DNA of 64,000 bases from Candidatus Yanofskybacteria bacterium RIFCSPLOWO2_01_FULL_42_49 (GCA_001795615.1 MGKI01000002.1:2760-66759); one strand, 5' to 3'. Shown: positions 31,493 through 38,555, counted from the first letter of the stretch. The notes: a model not told the origin generated them from the sequence alone. Numbers and translations are program-made.

Positions 31493-31583
31493 TATTCGCG
31501 GAAGACCAAGGGATCAAGCCTCCTTCGCCAAGGCTACGGAGGGCCAATCAAGGATCAAGGGATCCAAGCGTCCAAGTACCTTG

Positions 31584-31706
31584 AAACTACCGGGAGGGGC
31601 AGACACCGAGATGCGAAGTCGCATCGTCGCGGGAAGCGTGGCCGACGCGGAGACCGTCCGAGTCGAAGCGGCCAACGTTGACGAAGTAGCCGCCGGAAGA
31701 CCGCAC
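31584..31706 (-). other. DGR variable region VR1
   Basis: 123 nt aligned to TR by hand; every substitution maps to an adenine of TR. Confidence 0.8.
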
Positions 31707-32414
31707 ACCGGACCAGTCCCACTTATCCTCTAAGAGAGTTTCTTTGTTTTCTCCGTAGTAGAGAAATGTATCATAGACAATTTCTACAGGTGTCCTGCGT
31801 TTAACCAATGCCGGGTCAATGTTATTTTGCTTAGCCCAGTTTTTTAGCACTTCTTCTTGTTGATCCCAATTCTTGCTCAACGAGTCCGGCAAGACGGATT
31901 TCATAACAAGACCCCAGCCAAGCTTGGGAGTTCCTTCAAGAGCAAACTTTTCCTTATCAAACCATCCATCACCCTTACTTCGATAAAACATTTTCTTCTT
32001 CTTTTCCTTGGGATCACCCAAAGTATCTCCACCTGAAAACTTTTCTCGTATTTGATCAATGGTTAGGGGCTTAGCTTCCTTGCCTTCACCGATGCTTGGC
32101 ACTCGAAGTACCAGCATCATTCCCAATTGTTTTGCCTGTTCCAACTCCTCTCTGGTAAATGGTATGTTTTCAATCTCTTGCAATTCATCCGGAGTAAGTT
32201 CGACACCGTAGGTTGTTTTAATTGCCTCTGGGCCAAGAAAGTCCTTACCAAATATCTCTCGAGCCTCATCAAATTCAATGTTTACTTCTTTAGCCTCAGG
32301 CACCAGACCTTCTTTCTTGGCAGTATCTAAAGCCTGCTCAACCTTTTTCTGAGTAGAGTTTTTGAACTTATCTGGCTCGTATTCTTCGTAGATTTTGTAG
32401 GCTTCAAATGGCAT
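31587..32414 (-). CDS. DGR target protein 1; the C-terminal CLec-like variable region ends ...HLGVCPSR.
   Basis: The C-terminal 40 codons are homologous to TR (35702-35824), and all differences sit at TR adenines. It is 80% identical to the paralog at 34491-35318. Confidence 0.8.
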   Translation of the reverse strand: MPFEAYKIYEEYEPDKFKNSTQKKVEQALDTAKKEGLVPEAKEVNIEFDEAREIFGKDFLGPEAIKTTYGVELTPDELQEIENIPFTREELEQAKQLGMMLVLRVPSIGEGKEAKPLTIDQIREKFSGGDTLGDPKEKKKKMFYRSKGDGWFDKEKFALEGTPKLGWGLVMKSVLPDSLSKNWDQQEEVLKNWAKQNNIDPALVKRRTPVEIVYDTFLYYGENKETLLEDKWDWSGVRSSGGYFVNVGRFDSDGLRVGHASRDDATSHLGVCPSR

Positions 32415-32415
32415 A

Positions 32416-34404
32416 TTATAGGTCTTGGGTATATTTTAGAATAACTTTTTGAACTGCATGAGGCAACGCTTTAATATCTGTTATTACTTCGGCATCCGGC
32501 TTGTAGGTTTCTCTAACGGCTTGACCTGATTCAGTCATGCCCAATCCTAAACAAATAACCCCCTTATTCCTTAACTGAAGTAAAACAGTTTGGACTTTTC
32601 CTGAATCTTGGCTTTCGCCATCAGAAAGTACAACAATAACTTTTCTTCTTAATTTTTCTCTTAACTCTTTTTCTTGTTCCGGAGTTATTGAATCAAGAAC
32701 TTCTTCAAGAGAAAGGTAATCTGGCGTACCGCCACCAGCTTTGTGCATTTTTTTCCAAATACCAATTCTATCTTTTTCTGACAAGTCAGGTGATAACGAT
32801 TTTAGTTCTACATCGCCAAAGTCACCAAAAGCTCTAGTTTCAGTTCTGACTTGAAGTCCCAACGAAACACCACTCTCAAATTCGGCTTCTTCTATTTCTT
32901 TTTGAAAATCAGCTAGAGATTCCAGGAATAGGAGTTTGCTCTTGCGGTCCATCTCAAGCTTACCGCCTTCATTCATAGAACCAGATAAATCATTAACTAA
33001 AGACATATCAAGCATGCCATAGCCCTCCTGCTCTCGTTTATGCCTCTCAATCTCTCTAAATGCCCTTGGTTGGCCTCCGGCTCGCGATTCAATAGAAGAA
33101 TCAACCAATGTGTCCTCGGCTAGTTCTTCGCCTTCTGTTTTGAGCTGAGGCGAAAATTGCCATCGTTCTTTTAATCGCCTGGCAATGATCTTCTTAAAAA
33201 CTTCCCTTAGCTCGGCTACCAGGGGAGCGATCTCTTCATACTCCTTGCGATAACCAAGAACATCCTCGGCACTGACTCCATGCTCACGAGCCCATTCCTC
33301 AAGAATATTTTGTTCAAGAGTTGGTTGTCCGCCTTTTTTAGCAACTATTTCTTCCATCAACTTCTTGATTTCCTTTTCTTCGGCATGCGTTATGGGTTCT
33401 GGATGACCGTCATGGTAGGTCTTATACTCTTTCTTAAATTTCTTTTCAGCCGCTTCTCTGGCGGCACGGTCACTGGATTTCTTATCTCCACCTTTACTAG
33501 GTTGTTCTTCTTTGCCTTTTCCTTCTTGGGGTGTTTCCTTTTTTCTTTGCCACCATTTTTTCTTATCCTGGCCTGAACCTTGGCCTTGTTGAGGTTTATC
33601 AGAAACTTGAGTGTCCGTGGGTGACCCTTCACCCTGATCCTTGCTTTTACCGCTTTTCTTTTCTTCTTCTAAATCTTTTTCATAGAGTTCTCGATAGATA
33701 GGTTCGACAATTGTTCGCATTATTTGAAAACGATCTTTGGGGTCAATGGTTGGTGTAGTAACCAGATCAAGAATATCTATTTTATCTGAACCAAAGCTTC
33801 TCAATTTATCCAAAGCGGCCTGGGCTTCTGATCCAAGCTGTACCGCTTCTTCTGGCACCATCATCTGGCGAATAAAACCGTAAGTAAACTGAACATGAGA
33901 GGATTTATCGGTATAGTCAGTCGGTGGGAACATCTTTTCTCGGTAGAGTTGTTCTCGAGTTTCTTCTAGGAAAGGAAGTTCAGCAACAATACGTCTGTTA
34001 CCCAAAACATCTTCAAAGATATTGTATAAAAGATGGAGATGACCTTTTGCGCTGTATCGTTTGGCTTCTTTTAAGACAAGTTCCGGATTACGCATAAGCT
34101 CGCCATAGTGAGCCATAAGTTCGTGGGTGGTGGCAAAGAGAGTTTCCTGGAGGCTATAGCCACGTTCTATGAAGAATTTTGGATCGTAAATTAACTTTCG
34201 ATTTTGAAAATCAAATGCCCAACCGCCGTTACCTCGTTCAAGGGTAATATCACCCCTCAACCCGTAAGCTCCTAGTATTTCAGTTTCCTTATTTAAAAAT
34301 TCCTCGACGGCTTGAGCATCAATTTCGCTTTCCTGTTTTGGAACCTCTGGTTTTGGTTCGTCTTGAGGAGTTTCTATTCGATTTATGGGAAATGATTCTG
34401 GCAT
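32416..34404 (-). CDS. Protein with an N-terminal putative HExxH metallopeptidase-like region and a C-terminal von Willebrand factor A (MIDAS) domain, encoded between the two DGR targets
   Basis: HELMAH motif; a long K/E/Q/G-rich disordered middle; VWA with DLSGSM (DxSxS), a T (GGTPDY) and a VIVVLSDGES motif. Confidence 0.65.
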   Translation of the reverse strand: MPESFPINRIETPQDEPKPEVPKQESEIDAQAVEEFLNKETEILGAYGLRGDITLERGNGGWAFDFQNRKLIYDPKFFIERGYSLQETLFATTHELMAHYGELMRNPELVLKEAKRYSAKGHLHLLYNIFEDVLGNRRIVAELPFLEETREQLYREKMFPPTDYTDKSSHVQFTYGFIRQMMVPEEAVQLGSEAQAALDKLRSFGSDKIDILDLVTTPTIDPKDRFQIMRTIVEPIYRELYEKDLEEEKKSGKSKDQGEGSPTDTQVSDKPQQGQGSGQDKKKWWQRKKETPQEGKGKEEQPSKGGDKKSSDRAAREAAEKKFKKEYKTYHDGHPEPITHAEEKEIKKLMEEIVAKKGGQPTLEQNILEEWAREHGVSAEDVLGYRKEYEEIAPLVAELREVFKKIIARRLKERWQFSPQLKTEGEELAEDTLVDSSIESRAGGQPRAFREIERHKREQEGYGMLDMSLVNDLSGSMNEGGKLEMDRKSKLLFLESLADFQKEIEEAEFESGVSLGLQVRTETRAFGDFGDVELKSLSPDLSEKDRIGIWKKMHKAGGGTPDYLSLEEVLDSITPEQEKELREKLRRKVIVVLSDGESQDSGKVQTVLLQLRNKGVICLGLGMTESGQAVRETYKPDAEVITDIKALPHAVQKVILKYTQDL

Positions 34405-34487
34405 TTAGATGTGTTTATATAAAATTTTTTCGAAAGCCCAAGGAGACCAATAAGAATCAAGGGGTCCGAGCGCCCAAGCACCCTACG

Positions 34488-34610
34488 AAACTACCGGGAG
34501 GGGCAGACACCGAGACCCGAACTCGCATGGCCGCGGGAAGCGCCGTCGACGCCGAGACCGCCCGAGCCGAAGCGGCCAACGCGGACGAAGTTGCCGTCGG
34601 AAGACTGCAC
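34488..34610 (-). other. DGR variable region VR2
   Basis: Aligned to rc(TR); about 16 substitutions, all at TR adenines. Confidence 0.8.
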
Positions 34611-35318
34611 CTCGGTCCAATCATATTTATCCTCCAGTAGTGATTCTTTGTTTGCTCCATAGTATATCAGGGTATCATATGCAATTTCCACGGGTGTTCT
34701 TCTCTTAACTAGGGTAGGGTCTATATTATTGTCCTTTGCCCATTTCTTTAGAACTTCTTCTTGTTGATCCCAGTTTTTGCTTAATGAATCCGGTAATACG
34801 GATTTCATGACTAGACCCCAGCCGAGCTTAGGAGTGTCCTGGGTCACAAATTTTTCATTGTCATACCAACTTTCGCCTTTTTTACCATAAAAGACTTTTT
34901 GTTTCTTTTTCTTGGGATCACCCAAGGAATCGCCCTTGGTAAATAGTTCTCTGGCAGAATCAATGGTTAGAGGCCGTTCTGTTTTGCCTTCGCCGAGTCT
35001 GGGTACTCTTAGAACCAACATCATACCAAGTTGTTTGGCTTGTTCAAGCTCCTCTCTGGTGAAAGGGATGTCTTCTACCTCCTTGAGTTCATCTGGCGTC
35101 AACTCTACACCGAAAGTAGTTTGAATTGTTTCTGGTCCTAAGAAATCTTTGCCGAATATTTCTCGAGCTTCTTCAAATTCAACATGGACCTCCTTTGCCT
35201 CAGGTACTAGCCCTTCTTTTTTAGCGGTATCTAAAGCTTGCTCAACTTTCTTTTGAGTAGTGGTTTTAAACTTATCCGGTTCGTATTCCTCGTAGATTTT
35301 GTAGGCTTCAAATGGCAT
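34491..35318 (-). CDS. DGR target protein 2, paralog of 31587-32414
   Basis: Same architecture; the C-terminal VR differs from TR only at A positions. Confidence 0.8.
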   Translation of the reverse strand: MPFEAYKIYEEYEPDKFKTTTQKKVEQALDTAKKEGLVPEAKEVHVEFEEAREIFGKDFLGPETIQTTFGVELTPDELKEVEDIPFTREELEQAKQLGMMLVLRVPRLGEGKTERPLTIDSARELFTKGDSLGDPKKKKQKVFYGKKGESWYDNEKFVTQDTPKLGWGLVMKSVLPDSLSKNWDQQEEVLKKWAKDNNIDPTLVKRRTPVEIAYDTLIYYGANKESLLEDKYDWTEVQSSDGNFVRVGRFGSGGLGVDGASRGHASSGLGVCPSR

Positions 35319-35701
35319 GGTTCGATCAACTCACCACAAGTGGTGTAGTCGGAACTTTATTACATAAATATACAGTCAAAAATAGAATTTTACCAGCCCT
35401 TTTATAGTTGGGTATTTTATGTAATAATATTATTGAGTTTTGTTAATAGAGATTAAGCTCGGCTCAGGCTAGTTTAATCTTACGAACCTCCTCTTTTTGA
35501 TATCCACCGGAGTTCTTGTGGCCTATGGCTATAAGGAGTGGCGTGGCCGGAAAGTAGTAAAAACTACGAAACTACGTGTTTTATTTCAGCGTAGATGTCC
35601 TGCGAAAATCGAAGGACTGCTACCAGGTAAAATTCAGGGGAGAATCTTTTGATAATCCCCGGTGGCTATGGAGCGCTCATGGAGGGAATAAAACATATCG
35701 G

Positions 35702-35824
35702 TGCAGTCTTCCGACGGCAACTTCGTCAACGTTGGCAACTTCGACTCGGACGGTCTCAACGTCAACAACGATTCCCGCGACAATGCGAATTCGAATCTCG
35801 GTGTCTGCCCCTCTCGGTAGTTTT
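35702..35824 (+). other. DGR template repeat (TR); non-coding and AAC-rich
   Basis: No start codon in frame. It encodes SSDGNFVNVGNFDSDGLNVNNDSRDNANSNLGVCPSR in the frame matching the VRs and ends with an IMH-like GC-rich tract that differs from the VRs by a T/C change. Confidence 0.85.
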
Positions 35825-35828
35825 GTCT

Positions 35829-35871
35829 AAGTAAGTAATAGGCCTTCTTTCGAAGGCCTATTACTTACTTA
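35829..35871. terminator. Strong hairpin directly downstream of TR and overlapping the avd stop codon
   Basis: taagtaagtaataggcctt-cttt-cgaaggcctattacttactta. Confidence 0.5.
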
Positions 35872-36243
35872 CTCGCGAGTGGATCGAATCCAACCGCCAA
35901 GCATTTTGCCGATTTCTTGAATGTGGTTTTGGCAAACTATATACCTTTTGTCGCTCAATACGCCGAGGTCGCTTGCCATGCGAATAAACACTTTAAGGAT
36001 ATCAAGCTTGTTGCTGACCGATTCTAGAATCGGCAGCTTGTGGCTCTTGCTTGTTTGAGCTGCAAGCATAATGCCCTCAAGAATCTTTAATATGTATTCT
36101 TCGCAACGCTGTCCGAGCGTGTAGCGGTCTTTCTTGGGAAAATCAAGCTCAAAGATATAAAATTCTTTTAGAAAATCATGAGTTTTCTTAAAGATAGGAA
36201 TATCCAGGCTAAATTTCCCGTCATAGTTATGAGAGTTTTCCAT
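35869..36243 (-). CDS. avd: DGR accessory variability determinant (Avd), four-helix-bundle family
   Basis: 124 aa; C-terminal IQEIGKMLGGWIRS matches the Avd family pattern (cf. bAvd ...LIAEVGRILGSWI); adjacent to the RT. Confidence 0.75.
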   Translation of the reverse strand: MENSHNYDGKFSLDIPIFKKTHDFLKEFYIFELDFPKKDRYTLGQRCEEYILKILEGIMLAAQTSKSHKLPILESVSNKLDILKVFIRMASDLGVLSDKRYIVCQNHIQEIGKMLGGWIRSTRE

Positions 36244-37281
36244 AATGTTTTTAATAAGATTATTAGTTTAGAGAATTTGGTAATCTCGTGGAGGGAATTT
36301 CGAATTGGCAAAAAGCATCGGAGAGATACGCTGATCTTTGAGCGTGACCTGGAAGATAATCTGTGGGGACTTCACCGAGTTCTTGTGGATAGAACATATA
36401 AGCATTCCGGATATTCCTCATTTTTCGTCCAAGACCCGAAAGTAAGACACATCCACAAAGCATTGGTTCGAGATCGTGTTTTGCATCATGCCATAGTGAA
36501 GCACCTTAATCCAATCTTTGAACCAACTTTTATTTATGACTCCTATTCCTGTCGGATCGACAAAGGAACCCACCGGGGAGTAGAAGCTTTTGCTGAACAT
36601 GCTCGGCAAGTCAGCAAGAATTGGACCATTCCATGCTGGGTGCTCAAATGCGACGTCAGAAAATTCTTTGCCAGCATTGACCACAAAGTTTTGCTAGACA
36701 TCGTATTCAAGCAGGTAACGGATCTGGATGCCCGATGGTTAATAAATGAAGTGATCTCAAGTTTCAAATCAGAATTTACAATTAACCCCGAGAAGCCTAA
36801 GGGATTGCCAATTGGAAATCTGACTTCGCAGCTTTTTGCCAATGTGTATCTCAATGAGCTCGACCAATTCATGAAGCATCAGTTGAAAGAAAAACATTAC
36901 ATTCGTTATGCAGATGATTTTGTGATACTACATCCTCAAAGAGACCATTGTTTAAATATCGTAAAGCCAATAAATGCCCTCCTTAAAGAAACTCTCAAGC
37001 TGGAACTCCATCCAAATAAAATTACGGTCAGAAAATTTAGCCAAGGAGTCGATTTCTTGGGTTATGTTTGTTTTCCACATTTTGTAATACCAAGAGTTAA
37101 AACCGAATGTAGGATTTTTAATAAAATTCATAGAAATATTTTGCTATTTAAGCATAATCAGCTCAGTCTTGAATCGCTAAACCAAAGTATCCATTCATAT
37201 TTCGGTATTCTTTCGCATAGCGATTCTTTCGAACTGCAACAAGGGCTTGAAAATCAAATATTTTTCTGGCTTACACAATAA
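36229..37281 (+). CDS. DGR reverse transcriptase
   Basis: RT motifs including YADDFVI. The DGR-specific motif-4 signature LPIGNLTSQLFANVYLNELD has SQ in place of the QG of other RTs. N-terminal ENLVISWREF...RVLHHAIVKHLNPIFEPTFIYDSYSCRIDKGTH. Confidence 0.9.
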   Translation: MRVFHNVFNKIISLENLVISWREFRIGKKHRRDTLIFERDLEDNLWGLHRVLVDRTYKHSGYSSFFVQDPKVRHIHKALVRDRVLHHAIVKHLNPIFEPTFIYDSYSCRIDKGTHRGVEAFAEHARQVSKNWTIPCWVLKCDVRKFFASIDHKVLLDIVFKQVTDLDARWLINEVISSFKSEFTINPEKPKGLPIGNLTSQLFANVYLNELDQFMKHQLKEKHYIRYADDFVILHPQRDHCLNIVKPINALLKETLKLELHPNKITVRKFSQGVDFLGYVCFPHFVIPRVKTECRIFNKIHRNILLFKHNQLSLESLNQSIHSYFGILSHSDSFELQQGLENQIFFWLTQ

Positions 37282-38189: not shown

Positions 38190-38555
38190 TTAGCTTCTAG
38201 GTTTTAGGTTGTCAATCAAAGAATTCAACATTTTCATAACTTCCATTAGCAGTTGATCTGCCTTATTATAGTTTAGACTTTTTGTTTTAGCCAACCTTTT
38301 AGCTATTTCTATCTGTGTTTCTAATTCTGCACCCGAACCATATGCATTTAGTAAAAAATGCCTATAGTCTTTTCTCGTGCCACGCAATCGTCCTTCTGCG
38401 ATATTAGACGGTATTGAGATGGATGCTCTTCTCATCTGAGAAGTTAACCCATAATTTTCTTCTTTGGGAAAATCTTCAGTTAGAAGATAAACCTCCGTTA
38501 CAAGATTCATGGCTTTTTGCCAAACTATTAAATCCTTATATCCATTTAGAACCAT
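38190..38555 (-). CDS. Four-helix-bundle protein of the 23S rRNA intervening-sequence / Avd-like family
   Basis: DLIVWQKAMNLVTEVY...FPKEENYGLTSQMRRASISIPSNIAEG...FLLNAYGSGAELETQIEIA is the canonical family motif. Confidence 0.8.
   Translation of the reverse strand: MVLNGYKDLIVWQKAMNLVTEVYLLTEDFPKEENYGLTSQMRRASISIPSNIAEGRLRGTRKDYRHFLLNAYGSGAELETQIEIAKRLAKTKSLNYNKADQLLMEVMKMLNSLIDNLKPRS

What the first reader, a model, noticed from the sequence alone, without database searches (positions are those of the whole stretch)
31587..35318. DGR targets are tandem paralogs bracketing a VWA/HExxH gene in one minus-strand operon
Target2 (35318 to 34491), the 662-aa VWA protein (34404 to 32416) and target1 (32414 to 31587) are separated by 86 nt and 1 nt, so they are likely co-transcribed. 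The two targets are ~80% identical along their whole length. The ~50 nt downstream of their stops are also similar (cttggRcgctYggaYcccttgatYcttattgg), so the duplication included the VR-flanking homing signals. The sandwiched protein combines an N-terminal HELMAH (HExxH) region, a long K/E/Q/G-rich disordered segment and a C-terminal MIDAS-containing VWA domain (DLSGSM...GGTPDY...VIVVLSDGES). This layout recalls DUF2201-type putative metallopeptidase-VWA proteins that usually partner MoxR ATPases, but no ATPase is present. I do not recall this arrangement from characterised DGR loci, and the VWA protein may be a functional partner of the diversified proteins.
Basis: partly seen in the sequence, partly recalled or inferred. 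Interest (0 to 1): 0.7.

Follow-up and report, generated by a model that had tools for sequence, protein, structure and literature searches.

The report
DGR targets bracketing a MIDAS-VWA gene
Two hypermutable lectin-fold genes flank a VWA gene as described; in relatives these genes also sit beside a MoxR-like ATPase gene, which this genome has lost from the locus.

Summary
Two 275-aa paralogs (79% identical) bracket a 662-aa gene on the minus strand, with 86-nt and 1-nt gaps. Both carry variable repeats that differ from one template repeat (35701-35828, + strand) essentially only at template adenines.

The paralogs have a C-type-lectin fold. The middle protein has a MIDAS VWA domain closest to Midasin and NorD, the VWA class that works with AAA_5 ring ATPases. 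Its N-terminal motif is HExxxH here, not HExxH. That domain matches no Pfam or PDB family significantly.

That is true for this window only. In 19 distinct related Parcubacteria loci, a 556-559-aa AAA_5 ATPase sits in the same cassette. Here the ATPase and a third target paralog appear to have been deleted by recombination within the repeated VR and post-VR segment.

More distant CPR relatives keep the ATPase, the VWA protein and small variable paralogs, but no reverse transcriptase was called within 9 kb. The variable proteins are therefore best read as partners of an ATPase-VWA machine.

DGR-linked MoxR-vWA systems are already published for cyanobacteria and proteobacteria. I rate this a new CPR variant of a known kind. 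Function is inferred, not shown.

The parts
31587..32414 (-). Target paralog 'B' (275 aa), a C-type-lectin-fold DGR variable protein. No signal peptide or TM segment.
   Evidence: ORF. 96-97% identical outside the VR to L018_t2 and L020_t0. Hydropathy.
31584..31706 (-). VR1, the variable repeat of target B, including the stop codon and the IMH-like 3' end.
   Evidence: 88% complementary to the TR. 14 of 25 TR adenines substituted.
31541..31583 (-). Conserved post-VR element after target B (CTTGG-type short repeats), truncated compared with relatives.
   Evidence: No stable hairpin.
32416..34404 (-). 662-aa protein with an HExx(x)H N-domain, a disordered linker, a helical middle region and a C-terminal MIDAS VWA domain.
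33649..34317 (-). N-terminal domain (aa 30-252). Invariant H94, E95, H99 (HELMAH at nt 34108-34125), N128, D132, Y154, H170, Q172. Possibly zincin-like; not in Pfam.
   Evidence: Conservation. AF2 pLDDT 70-96 with three strands followed by the motif helix. No Pfam or PDB sequence match.
33481..33648 (-). K/E/Q/G-rich disordered linker (about aa 253-308).
   Evidence: pLDDT <50 for residues 254-308. Length varies among homologs.
32419..33018 (-). MIDAS VWA domain (about aa 463-662): D472-x-S474-x-S476, T560, D595.
34405..34490 (-). Post-VR conserved element after target A, fused to the VWA-upstream sequence. This is the inferred deletion junction that removed the AAA_5 ATPase and paralog C.
   Evidence: The window follows the L018 t0 flank, then switches to the 'TATATAAACACATCTAAATG' sequence found upstream of VWA in relatives.
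34491..35318 (-). Target paralog 'A' (275 aa), a C-type-lectin-fold DGR variable protein.
34485..34611 (-). VR2, the variable repeat of target A.
   Evidence: 85% complementary to the TR. 17 of 25 TR adenines substituted; the only other differences are two T-to-C changes in the IMH.
35701..35828 (+). Template repeat (TR), on the opposite strand to both VRs. In the VR reading frame it is rich in AAC codons.
   Evidence: these are the only three copies in the window.
35829..35867 (.). Perfect 19-bp hairpin between the TR and the 3' end of avd.
   Evidence: DNA fold -22.3 kcal/mol, z -7.3.
35869..36243 (-). avd, the DGR accessory four-helix-bundle protein.
   Evidence: NF033474 92.8 bits vs cut-off 80. 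Pfam bAvd 2e-19.
36178..37281 (+). DGR reverse transcriptase (IGNLTSQ and YADD motifs). The true start is probably downstream of 36178, since the ORF overlaps avd by 66 nt.
   Evidence: RVT_1 1e-23. Motifs. Relatives are 337-350 aa.

Best explanation
The three genes are the distal part of a roughly 5.9-kb cassette found in Parcubacteria; the closest named relatives are Candidatus Yanofskybacteria. In its full form the cassette holds four parts: (i) a DGR core in the CPR-typical TR-(avd)-RT layout; (ii) a MoxR-like AAA_5 ATPase; (iii) a protein with an HExx(x)H N-domain, a disordered linker and a Midasin/NorD-type MIDAS VWA domain; and (iv) two or three small cytoplasmic C-type-lectin-fold proteins interleaved with (ii) and (iii), all rewritten from one TR.

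Shown: the gene content, the conserved order, the folds, the intact MIDAS site, adenine-specific VR diversification (seen between samples in a sister lineage), and strong purifying selection on the VWA protein.

Inferred: the VWA protein is the adaptor subunit of an AAA+ ring machine, by analogy with NorQ/NorD and Rea1. The lectin-fold proteins are its exchangeable, DGR-reprogrammable recognition subunits. They would bind an unknown intracellular ligand with the variable face and dock to the machine through their strongly conserved but unstructured N-terminal tail (MPFEAYKIYEEYEPDKYK...). The HExx(x)H domain may supply a proteolytic output. The most likely role is an intracellular conflict or surveillance system of the kind proposed for DGR-linked MoxR-vWA systems.

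In this genome the ATPase and the third paralog (C) were removed by recombination between the repeated VR/post-VR segments, leaving TR, A, VWA and B. The remaining genes are intact.
For: Gene order. An AAA_5 ATPase of 556-559 aa (Pfam AAA_5 5e-20; Walker A and B present in the 7 close-relative ATPases examined) lies in the cassette in 19 distinct related loci. That is every locus whose contig covers at least 2.7 kb upstream of VWA, apart from L022 and L026/L027, where avd and RT sit directly upstream and the contig ends. A target gene starts 1-2 nt after the VWA stop in the called loci.

The same components recur in a second architecture (AAA5, target, target, TR, avd, RT, VWA, target). There the lectin subtype differs and shares only the N-terminal ~80 aa with the window's targets.

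Distant members of the HExxH-VWA family (407 representatives at E<=0.001) in Kaiserbacteria and other CPR keep AAA_5 + VWA + small paralogs with variable C-termini. No RT was called within 9 kb of them.

DGR activity. L006 and L007/L008 differ at 12 positions in 7.6 kb. All 12 lie in one VR and all at TR adenines.

Selection. VWA changes specific to the window lineage are 65 synonymous and 4 non-synonymous.

Deletion. Paralog typing gives A-AAA5-C-VWA-B in L018 and A-VWA-B in the window. The junction falls inside the repeated flank.

The N-terminal tail is nearly identical in relatives that are only 34-42% identical overall, yet its pLDDT is below 50. No TM segment or signal peptide is present.
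Against: No direct evidence of any protein-protein contact, of co-transcription, or of a phenotype. The window itself lacks the ATPase that the model needs, and whether one is encoded elsewhere in the genome is unknown.

Contigs of the same genome from other samples carry identical VRs, so no ongoing diversification is seen in this lineage.

The N-domain's peptidase nature rests on a motif and a predicted topology only. Pfam and PDB sequence searches found nothing significant, and the structure searches returned only VWA hits.

No PADLOC defence model matches the VWA protein or the target. The small partner proteins of the distant loci are not detectably homologous to the targets.
Confidence: 0.6

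Rival explanations
1. The window copy is a decaying remnant. Once the ATPase was lost, the VWA and target genes became non-functional passengers that have not yet accumulated lesions.
For: The ATPase is present in 19 distinct relatives and absent only here. VRs are identical in contigs from other samples. A sister genome (L020) has separately lost RT, avd and TR, so modular decay of this cassette does happen.
Against: All five ORFs are intact. The VWA protein shows 65 synonymous and 4 non-synonymous lineage-specific changes. TR/VR differences are still almost purely at adenines. The same ATPase-less arrangement occurs in a strain variant, L016. The timing of the deletion on the branch is unknown, so selection after the loss is not proven.
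Confidence: 0.2
2. The AAA_5 ATPase and the VWA protein are accessory factors of the retroelement itself, acting in cDNA integration, target-site remodelling or regulation of mutagenic homing. They are not partners of the variable proteins.
For: They sit between VRs inside the cassette in all close relatives. A conserved ~70-nt post-VR element of unknown role follows each target.
Against: The same HExxH-VWA plus AAA_5 pair occurs with small variable paralogs but with no RT or avd gene called within 9 kb in L030-L032. L020 keeps AAA_5, VWA and the targets after losing RT, avd and TR. Characterised DGRs need only RT, Avd and TR RNA (background stated in PMC5758913). The VWA is closest to the protein-handling MIDAS domains of Midasin and NorD.
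Confidence: 0.1
3. The linkage is only co-mobility: the genes travel together on a mobile island and have no functional relation.
For: The cassette lies in different genomic contexts, and the flanks of L018/L020 do not match the window. A large serine recombinase is adjacent in several relatives.
Against: The interleaved order and the 1-2-nt spacing are kept across VWA identities from 98% down to about 50%. Two cassette architectures and two lectin subtypes share the arrangement. RT-less relatives share the same theme of ATPase, VWA and small variable paralogs.
Confidence: 0.05
4. The VWA and lectin-fold proteins form an extracellular adhesion complex for episymbiotic attachment of the CPR cell to its host.
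For: VWA and C-type-lectin folds are common in adhesins, and many of the VWA structural hits are adhesins. DGR targets in many bacteria are surface proteins (10.1101/2020.04.01.020958).
Against: No signal peptide or TM segment: the highest 19-aa Kyte-Doolittle mean is below 1.0, and the N-termini are strongly hydrophilic. The partner in relatives is a cytoplasmic AAA+ ATPase. The best VWA matches are intracellular (Midasin, NorD) rather than adhesin VWAs. CPR clade-2 targets are reported to lack membrane features generally (10.1101/2020.04.01.020958).
Confidence: 0.05

Closest known systems
DGR-associated MoxR-vWA (VMAP-ternary) conflict systems of cyanobacteria and gammaproteobacteria (Kaur et al. 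2020, PMC7159879; Dore et al. 2024, PMC10907252)
   Same: A MoxR-type AAA_5 ATPase, a MIDAS vWA protein and a DGR-diversified C-type-lectin (FGS) domain are encoded together. The components are predicted to be cytoplasmic. A peptidase-like element is present in the system.
   Different: Here the lectin domain is not fused to the vWA protein. It sits on 2-3 separate small paralogs interleaved with the ATPase and vWA genes. No VMAP protein or other Pfam-recognisable third component was found. The vWA protein carries its own HExx(x)H N-domain. The hosts are genome-reduced CPR bacteria rather than multicellular bacteria. The window copy lacks the ATPase.
CPR DGR targets with a fused AAA/Midasin-type ATPase domain (Wu et al. 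2018, PMC5758913, UVR4 group; summarised in PMC10907252)
   Same: CPR host. TR-(avd)-RT 'B3' architecture. The variable domain is associated with a Midasin-family AAA ATPase.
   Different: In those proteins the ATPase and the variable domain are one polypeptide. Here the ATPase (in relatives), the MIDAS-VWA protein and the variable proteins are separate genes. I could not read Paul et al. 2017, so I cannot say whether this split cassette was shown there.
NorQ/NorD, CbbQ/CbbO and Rea1 (Midasin): AAA_5 ring plus MIDAS-VWA adaptor machines
   Same: The VWA domain is structurally closest to MDN1/Rea1 MIDAS and NorD. The MIDAS residues are intact. An AAA_5 partner is encoded alongside in relatives. 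The VWA domain is at the C-terminus.
   Different: No sequence-level membership in those families, and the substrates are unrelated. The N-terminal HExx(x)H domain and the DGR-diversified partners have no counterpart in them.
DUF2201-type proteins (Pfam PF13203 putative metallopeptidase + PF09967 VWA-like) that pair with MoxR ATPases
   Same: The same order of an HExxH-containing N-domain followed by a VWA-type C-domain, and the same kind of ATPase partner.
   Different: No significant match to either Pfam model. The window protein gives no hit at E<=1. One of 20 diverse family members touches PF13203 at E 0.099. The protein is much longer, with a disordered linker and a helical middle region.

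Membership tests
Diversity-generating retroelement (DGR) | TR/VR pair whose differences fall at template adenines | tested here: met
   VR1 has 14 and VR2 has 17 of 25 TR adenines changed. The non-A differences are only at the repeat edge or IMH.
Diversity-generating retroelement (DGR) | DGR-type reverse transcriptase adjacent to the TR | tested here: met
   RVT_1 1e-23. IGNLTSQ and YADD motifs. The RT lies about 350 nt from the TR.
Diversity-generating retroelement (DGR) | Avd accessory protein | tested here: met
   NF033474 DivGenRetAVD 92.8 bits, above the cut-off of 80.
Diversity-generating retroelement (DGR) | VR located in a C-type-lectin-fold C-terminal domain | tested here: met
Diversity-generating retroelement (DGR) | Ongoing diversification in natural populations | tested here: inconclusive
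   Seen in the sister lineage: 12 of 12 differences over 7.6 kb lie in one VR, at TR adenines. Not seen among contigs of the window genome from other samples. Assemblies are consensus sequences, so read-level data are needed.
VWA / MIDAS domain | Profile match above the curated threshold | tested here: met
   PF00092 scores 25.9 bits against a cut-off of 23.8, although only residues 562-629 align. Distant family members score up to 47 bits over the whole domain.
VWA / MIDAS domain | DxSxS...T...D metal-ion-dependent adhesion site | tested here: met
   D472, S474, S476, T560 and D595 are conserved in 117, 116, 116, 102 and 115 of 117 diverse homologs and are invariant or nearly so in 44 close homologs.
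VWA / MIDAS domain | VWA (Rossmann-like alpha/beta) fold | tested here: met
MoxR(AAA_5)-VWA two-component machines | AAA_5/MoxR ATPase encoded next to the VWA gene | tested here: not met
   Absent from the whole 64-kb window. Present in 19 distinct related loci. The family-level feature is met; this locus has lost it.
VMAP-ternary conflict system (Kaur et al. 2020) | A third, VMAP-domain protein | tested here: not met
   No Pfam hit of any kind on the targets, and none but VWA on the middle protein. No further conserved gene in the cassette. The authors' own VMAP alignments were not available to me.
VMAP-ternary conflict system (Kaur et al. 2020) | vWA protein fused to the diversified FGS/lectin effector | tested here: not met
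   The lectin-fold variable domains are on separate 275-aa proteins.
DUF2201-type metallopeptidase-VWA proteins (PF13203/PF09967) | Match to PF13203 and/or PF09967 | tested here: not met
   No hit at E<=1 for residues 1-250 or for the whole protein at E<=0.1. One of 20 diverse N-domains reaches E 0.099, which is not significant.
Zincin metallopeptidase | HExxH on a helix plus a third metal ligand, within the zincin fold | tested here: inconclusive
   H94 and E95 are conserved in 117 of 117 and H99 in 115 of 117. The spacing is HExxxH here and HExxH in most relatives. D132 and H170 are candidate third ligands. The model shows three strands, then the motif helix, then a second helix. No fold or profile match was obtained: all structural hits were to the VWA domain.

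The most novel reading that the evidence does not exclude
CPR bacteria may carry a split, Midasin-like AAA_5 / MIDAS-VWA / HExxH machine whose substrate or ligand specificity is supplied by separately encoded lectin-fold adaptor proteins. These would dock through a conserved N-terminal tail. In one lineage they are continuously reprogrammed by a DGR; in other lineages they are varied by paralog arrays instead. That would make it an intracellular, anticipatory recognition system in genome-reduced episymbionts. The VR repeats would also act as recombination sites that shuffle or delete its modules.
Probability: 0.35. Interest if true: 0.75.

Novelty: new variant of a known kind. Interest (0 to 1): 0.55.

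Why it matters
What CPR DGR targets do is an open question. Published surveys note that they lack recognisable domains and membrane features (10.1101/2020.04.01.020958; PMC5758913). This cassette ties one large CPR target family to a concrete partner machine: an AAA_5 ATPase and a Midasin/NorD-type MIDAS protein with an HExx(x)H domain. That gives testable predictions: N-tail docking, ligand capture through the MIDAS site, and ATP-driven remodelling or proteolysis.

It also extends the published link between DGRs and MoxR-vWA systems from multicellular bacteria to ultra-small episymbionts, with the components split rather than fused. Natural 'knock-out' variants exist side by side in near-identical genomes: the ATPase is lost here, and RT, avd and TR are lost in L020. 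These variants could be used in comparative metagenomics.

Tried and rejected
- PADLOC models: no hit for the VWA protein or the target.
- phmmer and profile searches of the whole protein and of the N-domain against PDB sequences: only chance-level hits.
- Pfam on the N-domain, alone and as 13- and 20-member sets: nothing significant.
- A classical DGR hairpin or cruciform downstream of the VRs: not supported, with z-scores of +1.2 and +0.2.
- Promoter and terminator scan of the operon: no more sites than shuffled controls, and no terminator between the three genes.
- Viral contigs: one weak 25%-identity hit, so no evidence that the cassette is phage-borne.
- Homology between the window's targets and the small partner proteins of distant loci L030-L032: none detected.
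- Paul et al. 2017 (Nat Microbiol), the main CPR DGR survey, could not be read. Prior description of this exact cassette cannot be excluded.
- Mis-assembly as the cause of the missing ATPase was considered and judged unlikely. The same junction occurs in independent assemblies from three other samples, one of them a strain variant, and the shared repeat stretches look too short and divergent to collapse. Read-level confirmation is still needed.


Full report
**1. Observation**

They are separated by 86 nt and 1 nt. The two small proteins are 79% identical over their full length without gaps, and their DNA is 71-80% identical. The sequence just after each stop codon is also similar: 31550-31580 vs 34452-34482 is 84% identical.

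Both C-termini are inverted copies of a 128-nt template repeat at 35701-35828 on the + strand. In register, VR1 differs from the TR at 14 and VR2 at 17 of the 25 TR adenines. The remaining mismatches are two T-to-C changes in the GC-rich 3' end (IMH-like) and a few at the 5' edge. There are no further TR-like copies in the window.

Next to the TR lie avd (35869-36243, minus strand; NF033474 at 92.8 bits vs a cut-off of 80) and a reverse transcriptase (36178-37281, plus strand; RVT_1 1e-23; IGNLTSQ and YADD motifs). This TR-(avd)-RT order is the 'B3' architecture that Wu et al. report for 90% of CPR DGRs (PMC5758913).

**2. The two targets**

There is no hydrophobic segment (highest 19-aa Kyte-Doolittle mean 0.44-0.72), and the N-terminus is strongly hydrophilic. 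The proteins are therefore predicted to be cytoplasmic.

The N-terminal tail, MPFEAYK[IL]Y[EQ]EYEPDKYKTSTQKK, is almost unchanged in relatives that are only 34-42% identical overall. It is also the main part shared with a second, 282-aa lectin subtype found in related cassettes (profile match to residues 1-80 only). A conserved tail that is predicted to be unstructured is typical of a docking peptide. That reading is my inference.

**3. The middle protein**

Pfam VWA is just above its gathering score (25.9 vs 23.8 bits) on residues 562-629. The DxSxS, T and D MIDAS residues (D472, S474, S476, T560, D595) are invariant or nearly so in 44 close homologs. In 117 diverse homologs they are conserved at 117, 116, 116, 102 and 115 of 117.

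The N-terminal motif is H94-E95-L-M-A-H99, which is HExxxH. In a profile search of 1.84 billion representatives, the N-domain family has 407 members at E<=0.001, nearly all 600-780 aa long with the domain at the N-terminus. In an alignment of 117 of them, H94 and E95 are invariant and H99 is 115 of 117. Position 98 is a gap in 74, so most relatives have HExxH. N128, D132, Y154, H170 and Q172 are almost invariant.

The model shows three short strands, then the motif-bearing helix, then a helix carrying N128 and D132. This is compatible with a zincin. However, no Pfam family or PDB sequence matches significantly. The only hints are one of 20 diverse members touching Peptidase_M10 (E 0.046) and one touching DUF2201_N (E 0.099). 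The peptidase assignment is therefore a hypothesis. The DUF2201 comparison is an analogy, not membership.

**4. Neighbourhood conservation**

Close homologs of the 662-aa protein (86 clusters, 50-93% identity) all come from Patescibacteria/Parcubacteria. The nearest named genomes are Candidatus Yanofskybacteria MAGs (97-98% identity).

I annotated 50 related loci by tblastn with reference proteins, supported by called genes. A target gene directly precedes and follows the VWA gene wherever the contig extends that far. Every locus with at least about 2.7 kb of upstream sequence carries a 556-559-aa AAA_5 ATPase in the same operon. That makes 19 distinct loci. The exceptions are L022 and L026/L027, where avd and RT sit directly upstream and the contig ends.

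- Typical order: RT(-), avd(+), TR, [target], AAA_5, target, VWA, target.
- Second architecture: the DGR core sits between the targets and VWA (AAA_5, target, target, TR, avd, RT, VWA, target).

The ATPase matches Pfam AAA_5 at 5e-20. Walker A and B motifs are present in the seven close-relative ATPases I examined.

Only the window genome lacks the ATPase. Contigs carrying the identical VWA protein from three other samples show the same arrangement. Neither tblastn nor a profile HMM on six-frame ORFs (best E 0.13) finds an ATPase homolog in the 64 kb.

**5. How the ATPase was lost**

Outside the VR, the targets of close relatives fall into three paralog types.

| Type | Length | Members |
|---|---|---|
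| A | 275 aa | window 34491-35318, L018_t0, L020_t2, L010_t1 |
| B | 275 aa | window 31587-32414, L018_t2, L020_t0 |
| C | 272 aa | L018_t1, L020_t1 |

L018 reads A, AAA_5, C, VWA, B, and the window reads A, VWA, B.

Every target is followed by the same ~70-nt element...TAGTTTCG..CTTGGGCGCTTGGAT.CCTTGATTCTTATTGG....TTGGG.ATTCGAAAAAATTT. After that, the sequence depends on the next gene. The window follows the flank of L018's paralog A and then switches to the sequence found upstream of VWA. The simplest reading is homologous recombination between the directly repeated VR/post-VR segments, which deleted AAA_5 and C.

A sister genome (L020) instead lost most of RT, together with avd and the TR, and keeps only the RT 3' end. 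In L020 paralogs A and B have swapped positions. The cassette is therefore modular and is often rearranged. It also lies in different genomic contexts, sometimes beside a large serine recombinase.

**6. Is the system alive?**

In the sister lineage that carries the ATPase (VWA 90% identical), contigs from different samples differ at 12 positions over 7.6 kb. All 12 lie in the VR of the target between AAA_5 and VWA, and all are at TR adenines. This is direct evidence that the DGR acted in nature.

For the window genome, the contigs from other samples have identical VRs, so activity is not shown. All ORFs are intact, however. The VWA gene shows 65 synonymous and 4 non-synonymous window-specific codon changes, and 137 vs 12 against L020. 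That indicates strong purifying selection, although the deletion cannot be dated on the branch.

**7. Wider family**

Distant HExxH-VWA proteins from Kaiserbacteria and other CPR genomes sit next to AAA_5 ATPases and to small paralogous proteins with conserved N-termini and highly divergent C-termini.

- L030: four 211-216-aa paralogs interleaved with VWA and AAA_5.
- L032: five repeat-protein paralogs, one type also fused to the ATPase C-terminus.
- L031: AAA_5, a 259-aa protein, then VWA.

No RT or avd gene was called within 9 kb of any of these. The partner proteins are not detectably homologous to the lectin-fold targets. The constant theme is ATPase + MIDAS/HExxH protein + variable small partners. 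The DGR is one way of producing the variability. This argues against the ATPase and VWA protein being retrohoming factors.

**8. Comparison with the literature**

Kaur et al. (PMC7159879) describe MoxR-vWA-VMAP ternary conflict systems. [quoted passage not shown] Dore et al. (PMC10907252) extend this to Thiohalocapsa and propose that the diversified lectin domain is an antigen sensor relayed through the MoxR ATPase. [quoted passage not shown] Wu et al. report Midasin-type AAA motifs in one CPR target group. Roux et al. note that CPR targets generally lack recognisable or membrane domains.

The present cassette shares the parts list. It differs in four ways: the components are split, there are several interleaved target paralogs with a common N-tail, the vWA protein carries an HExx(x)H domain, and there is no VMAP. 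I found no description of this exact cassette, but I could not read Paul et al. 2017.

**9. Verdict**

Function remains inferred. I rate the finding a new variant of a known kind, of moderate-to-good interest.

Noticed in passing
window 35829-35867: A perfect 19-bp hairpin (AGTAAGTAATAGGCCTTC / GAAGGCCTATTACTTACT, -22.3 kcal/mol, z -7.3) lies directly after the TR and before the convergent avd stop. It could end a TR transcript or the avd transcript. If the TR and RT are on one RNA, that RNA must run antisense through avd.
   Followed up: partly
window 34405-34490 and 31541-31583; L018 7312-7380, 9911-9985, 12816-12885: A conserved ~70-nt element with CTTGG-like short direct repeats follows every target gene and is absent after the TR. 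It does not fold into a stable hairpin, unlike the cruciform known from the Bordetella phage DGR. Its role (target-site recognition or something else) is unknown.
   Followed up: partly
L020 5855-6175 (Candidatus Yanofskybacteria MAG JACPNJ010000002.1): A sister genome with a 98%-identical VWA protein keeps AAA_5 and three targets but has lost most of RT, together with avd and the TR. Only the RT 3' end remains. This is the reciprocal natural 'knock-out' to the window. Paralogs A and B are also swapped in position there.
   Followed up: partly
L016 vs window 31737-32145: A strain variant from another sample differs from the window at 49 positions. All are clustered in the body of target B, mostly at 3-nt spacing, while the other ~3.4 kb is identical. 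This suggests a recombination or gene-conversion patch.
   Followed up: no
L030 7563-14517; L032 9001-18387; L031 6229-11082: In distant CPR relatives the HExxH-VWA and AAA_5 genes are interleaved with arrays of small paralogs that have conserved N-termini and very divergent C-termini. No reverse transcriptase was called within 9 kb. In L032 the paralog repeat is also fused to the ATPase C-terminus.
   Followed up: partly
window 34491-35318 and 31587-32414, residues 1-25: The target N-terminal tail MPFEAYKIYEEYEPDK[FY]K is the best-conserved part of the family across distant members and across two lectin subtypes, yet it is predicted disordered. The VWA and AAA_5 proteins also start with MP.E..FP-like sequences. 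The significance is unknown.
   Followed up: partly
window 38190-38555 (-): A second four-helix-bundle protein gene lies 2 kb from the DGR (TIGR02436 4e-36; only 25 bits to the Avd model, cut-off 80). It is probably the common CPR '23S rRNA IVS' type rather than a second Avd.
   Followed up: partly
window 36178-36243: The longest RT ORF overlaps avd by 66 nt on the opposite strand. Relatives' RTs are 337-350 aa against 367 aa here, so the real start codon is probably further downstream.
   Followed up: no
L001 10939-12279; L006 3928-5343; L018 2957-4306; L029 14493-15851: A large serine recombinase (Resolvase/Recombinase/Zn_ribbon_recom) borders the cassette in several relatives, and the cassette flanks differ between genomes. 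This suggests a mobile island. No recombinase homolog was detected in the window (tblastn), where the cassette sits between ybeY/ftsA/ftsZ and a GatB/YqeY-like gene.
   Followed up: partly
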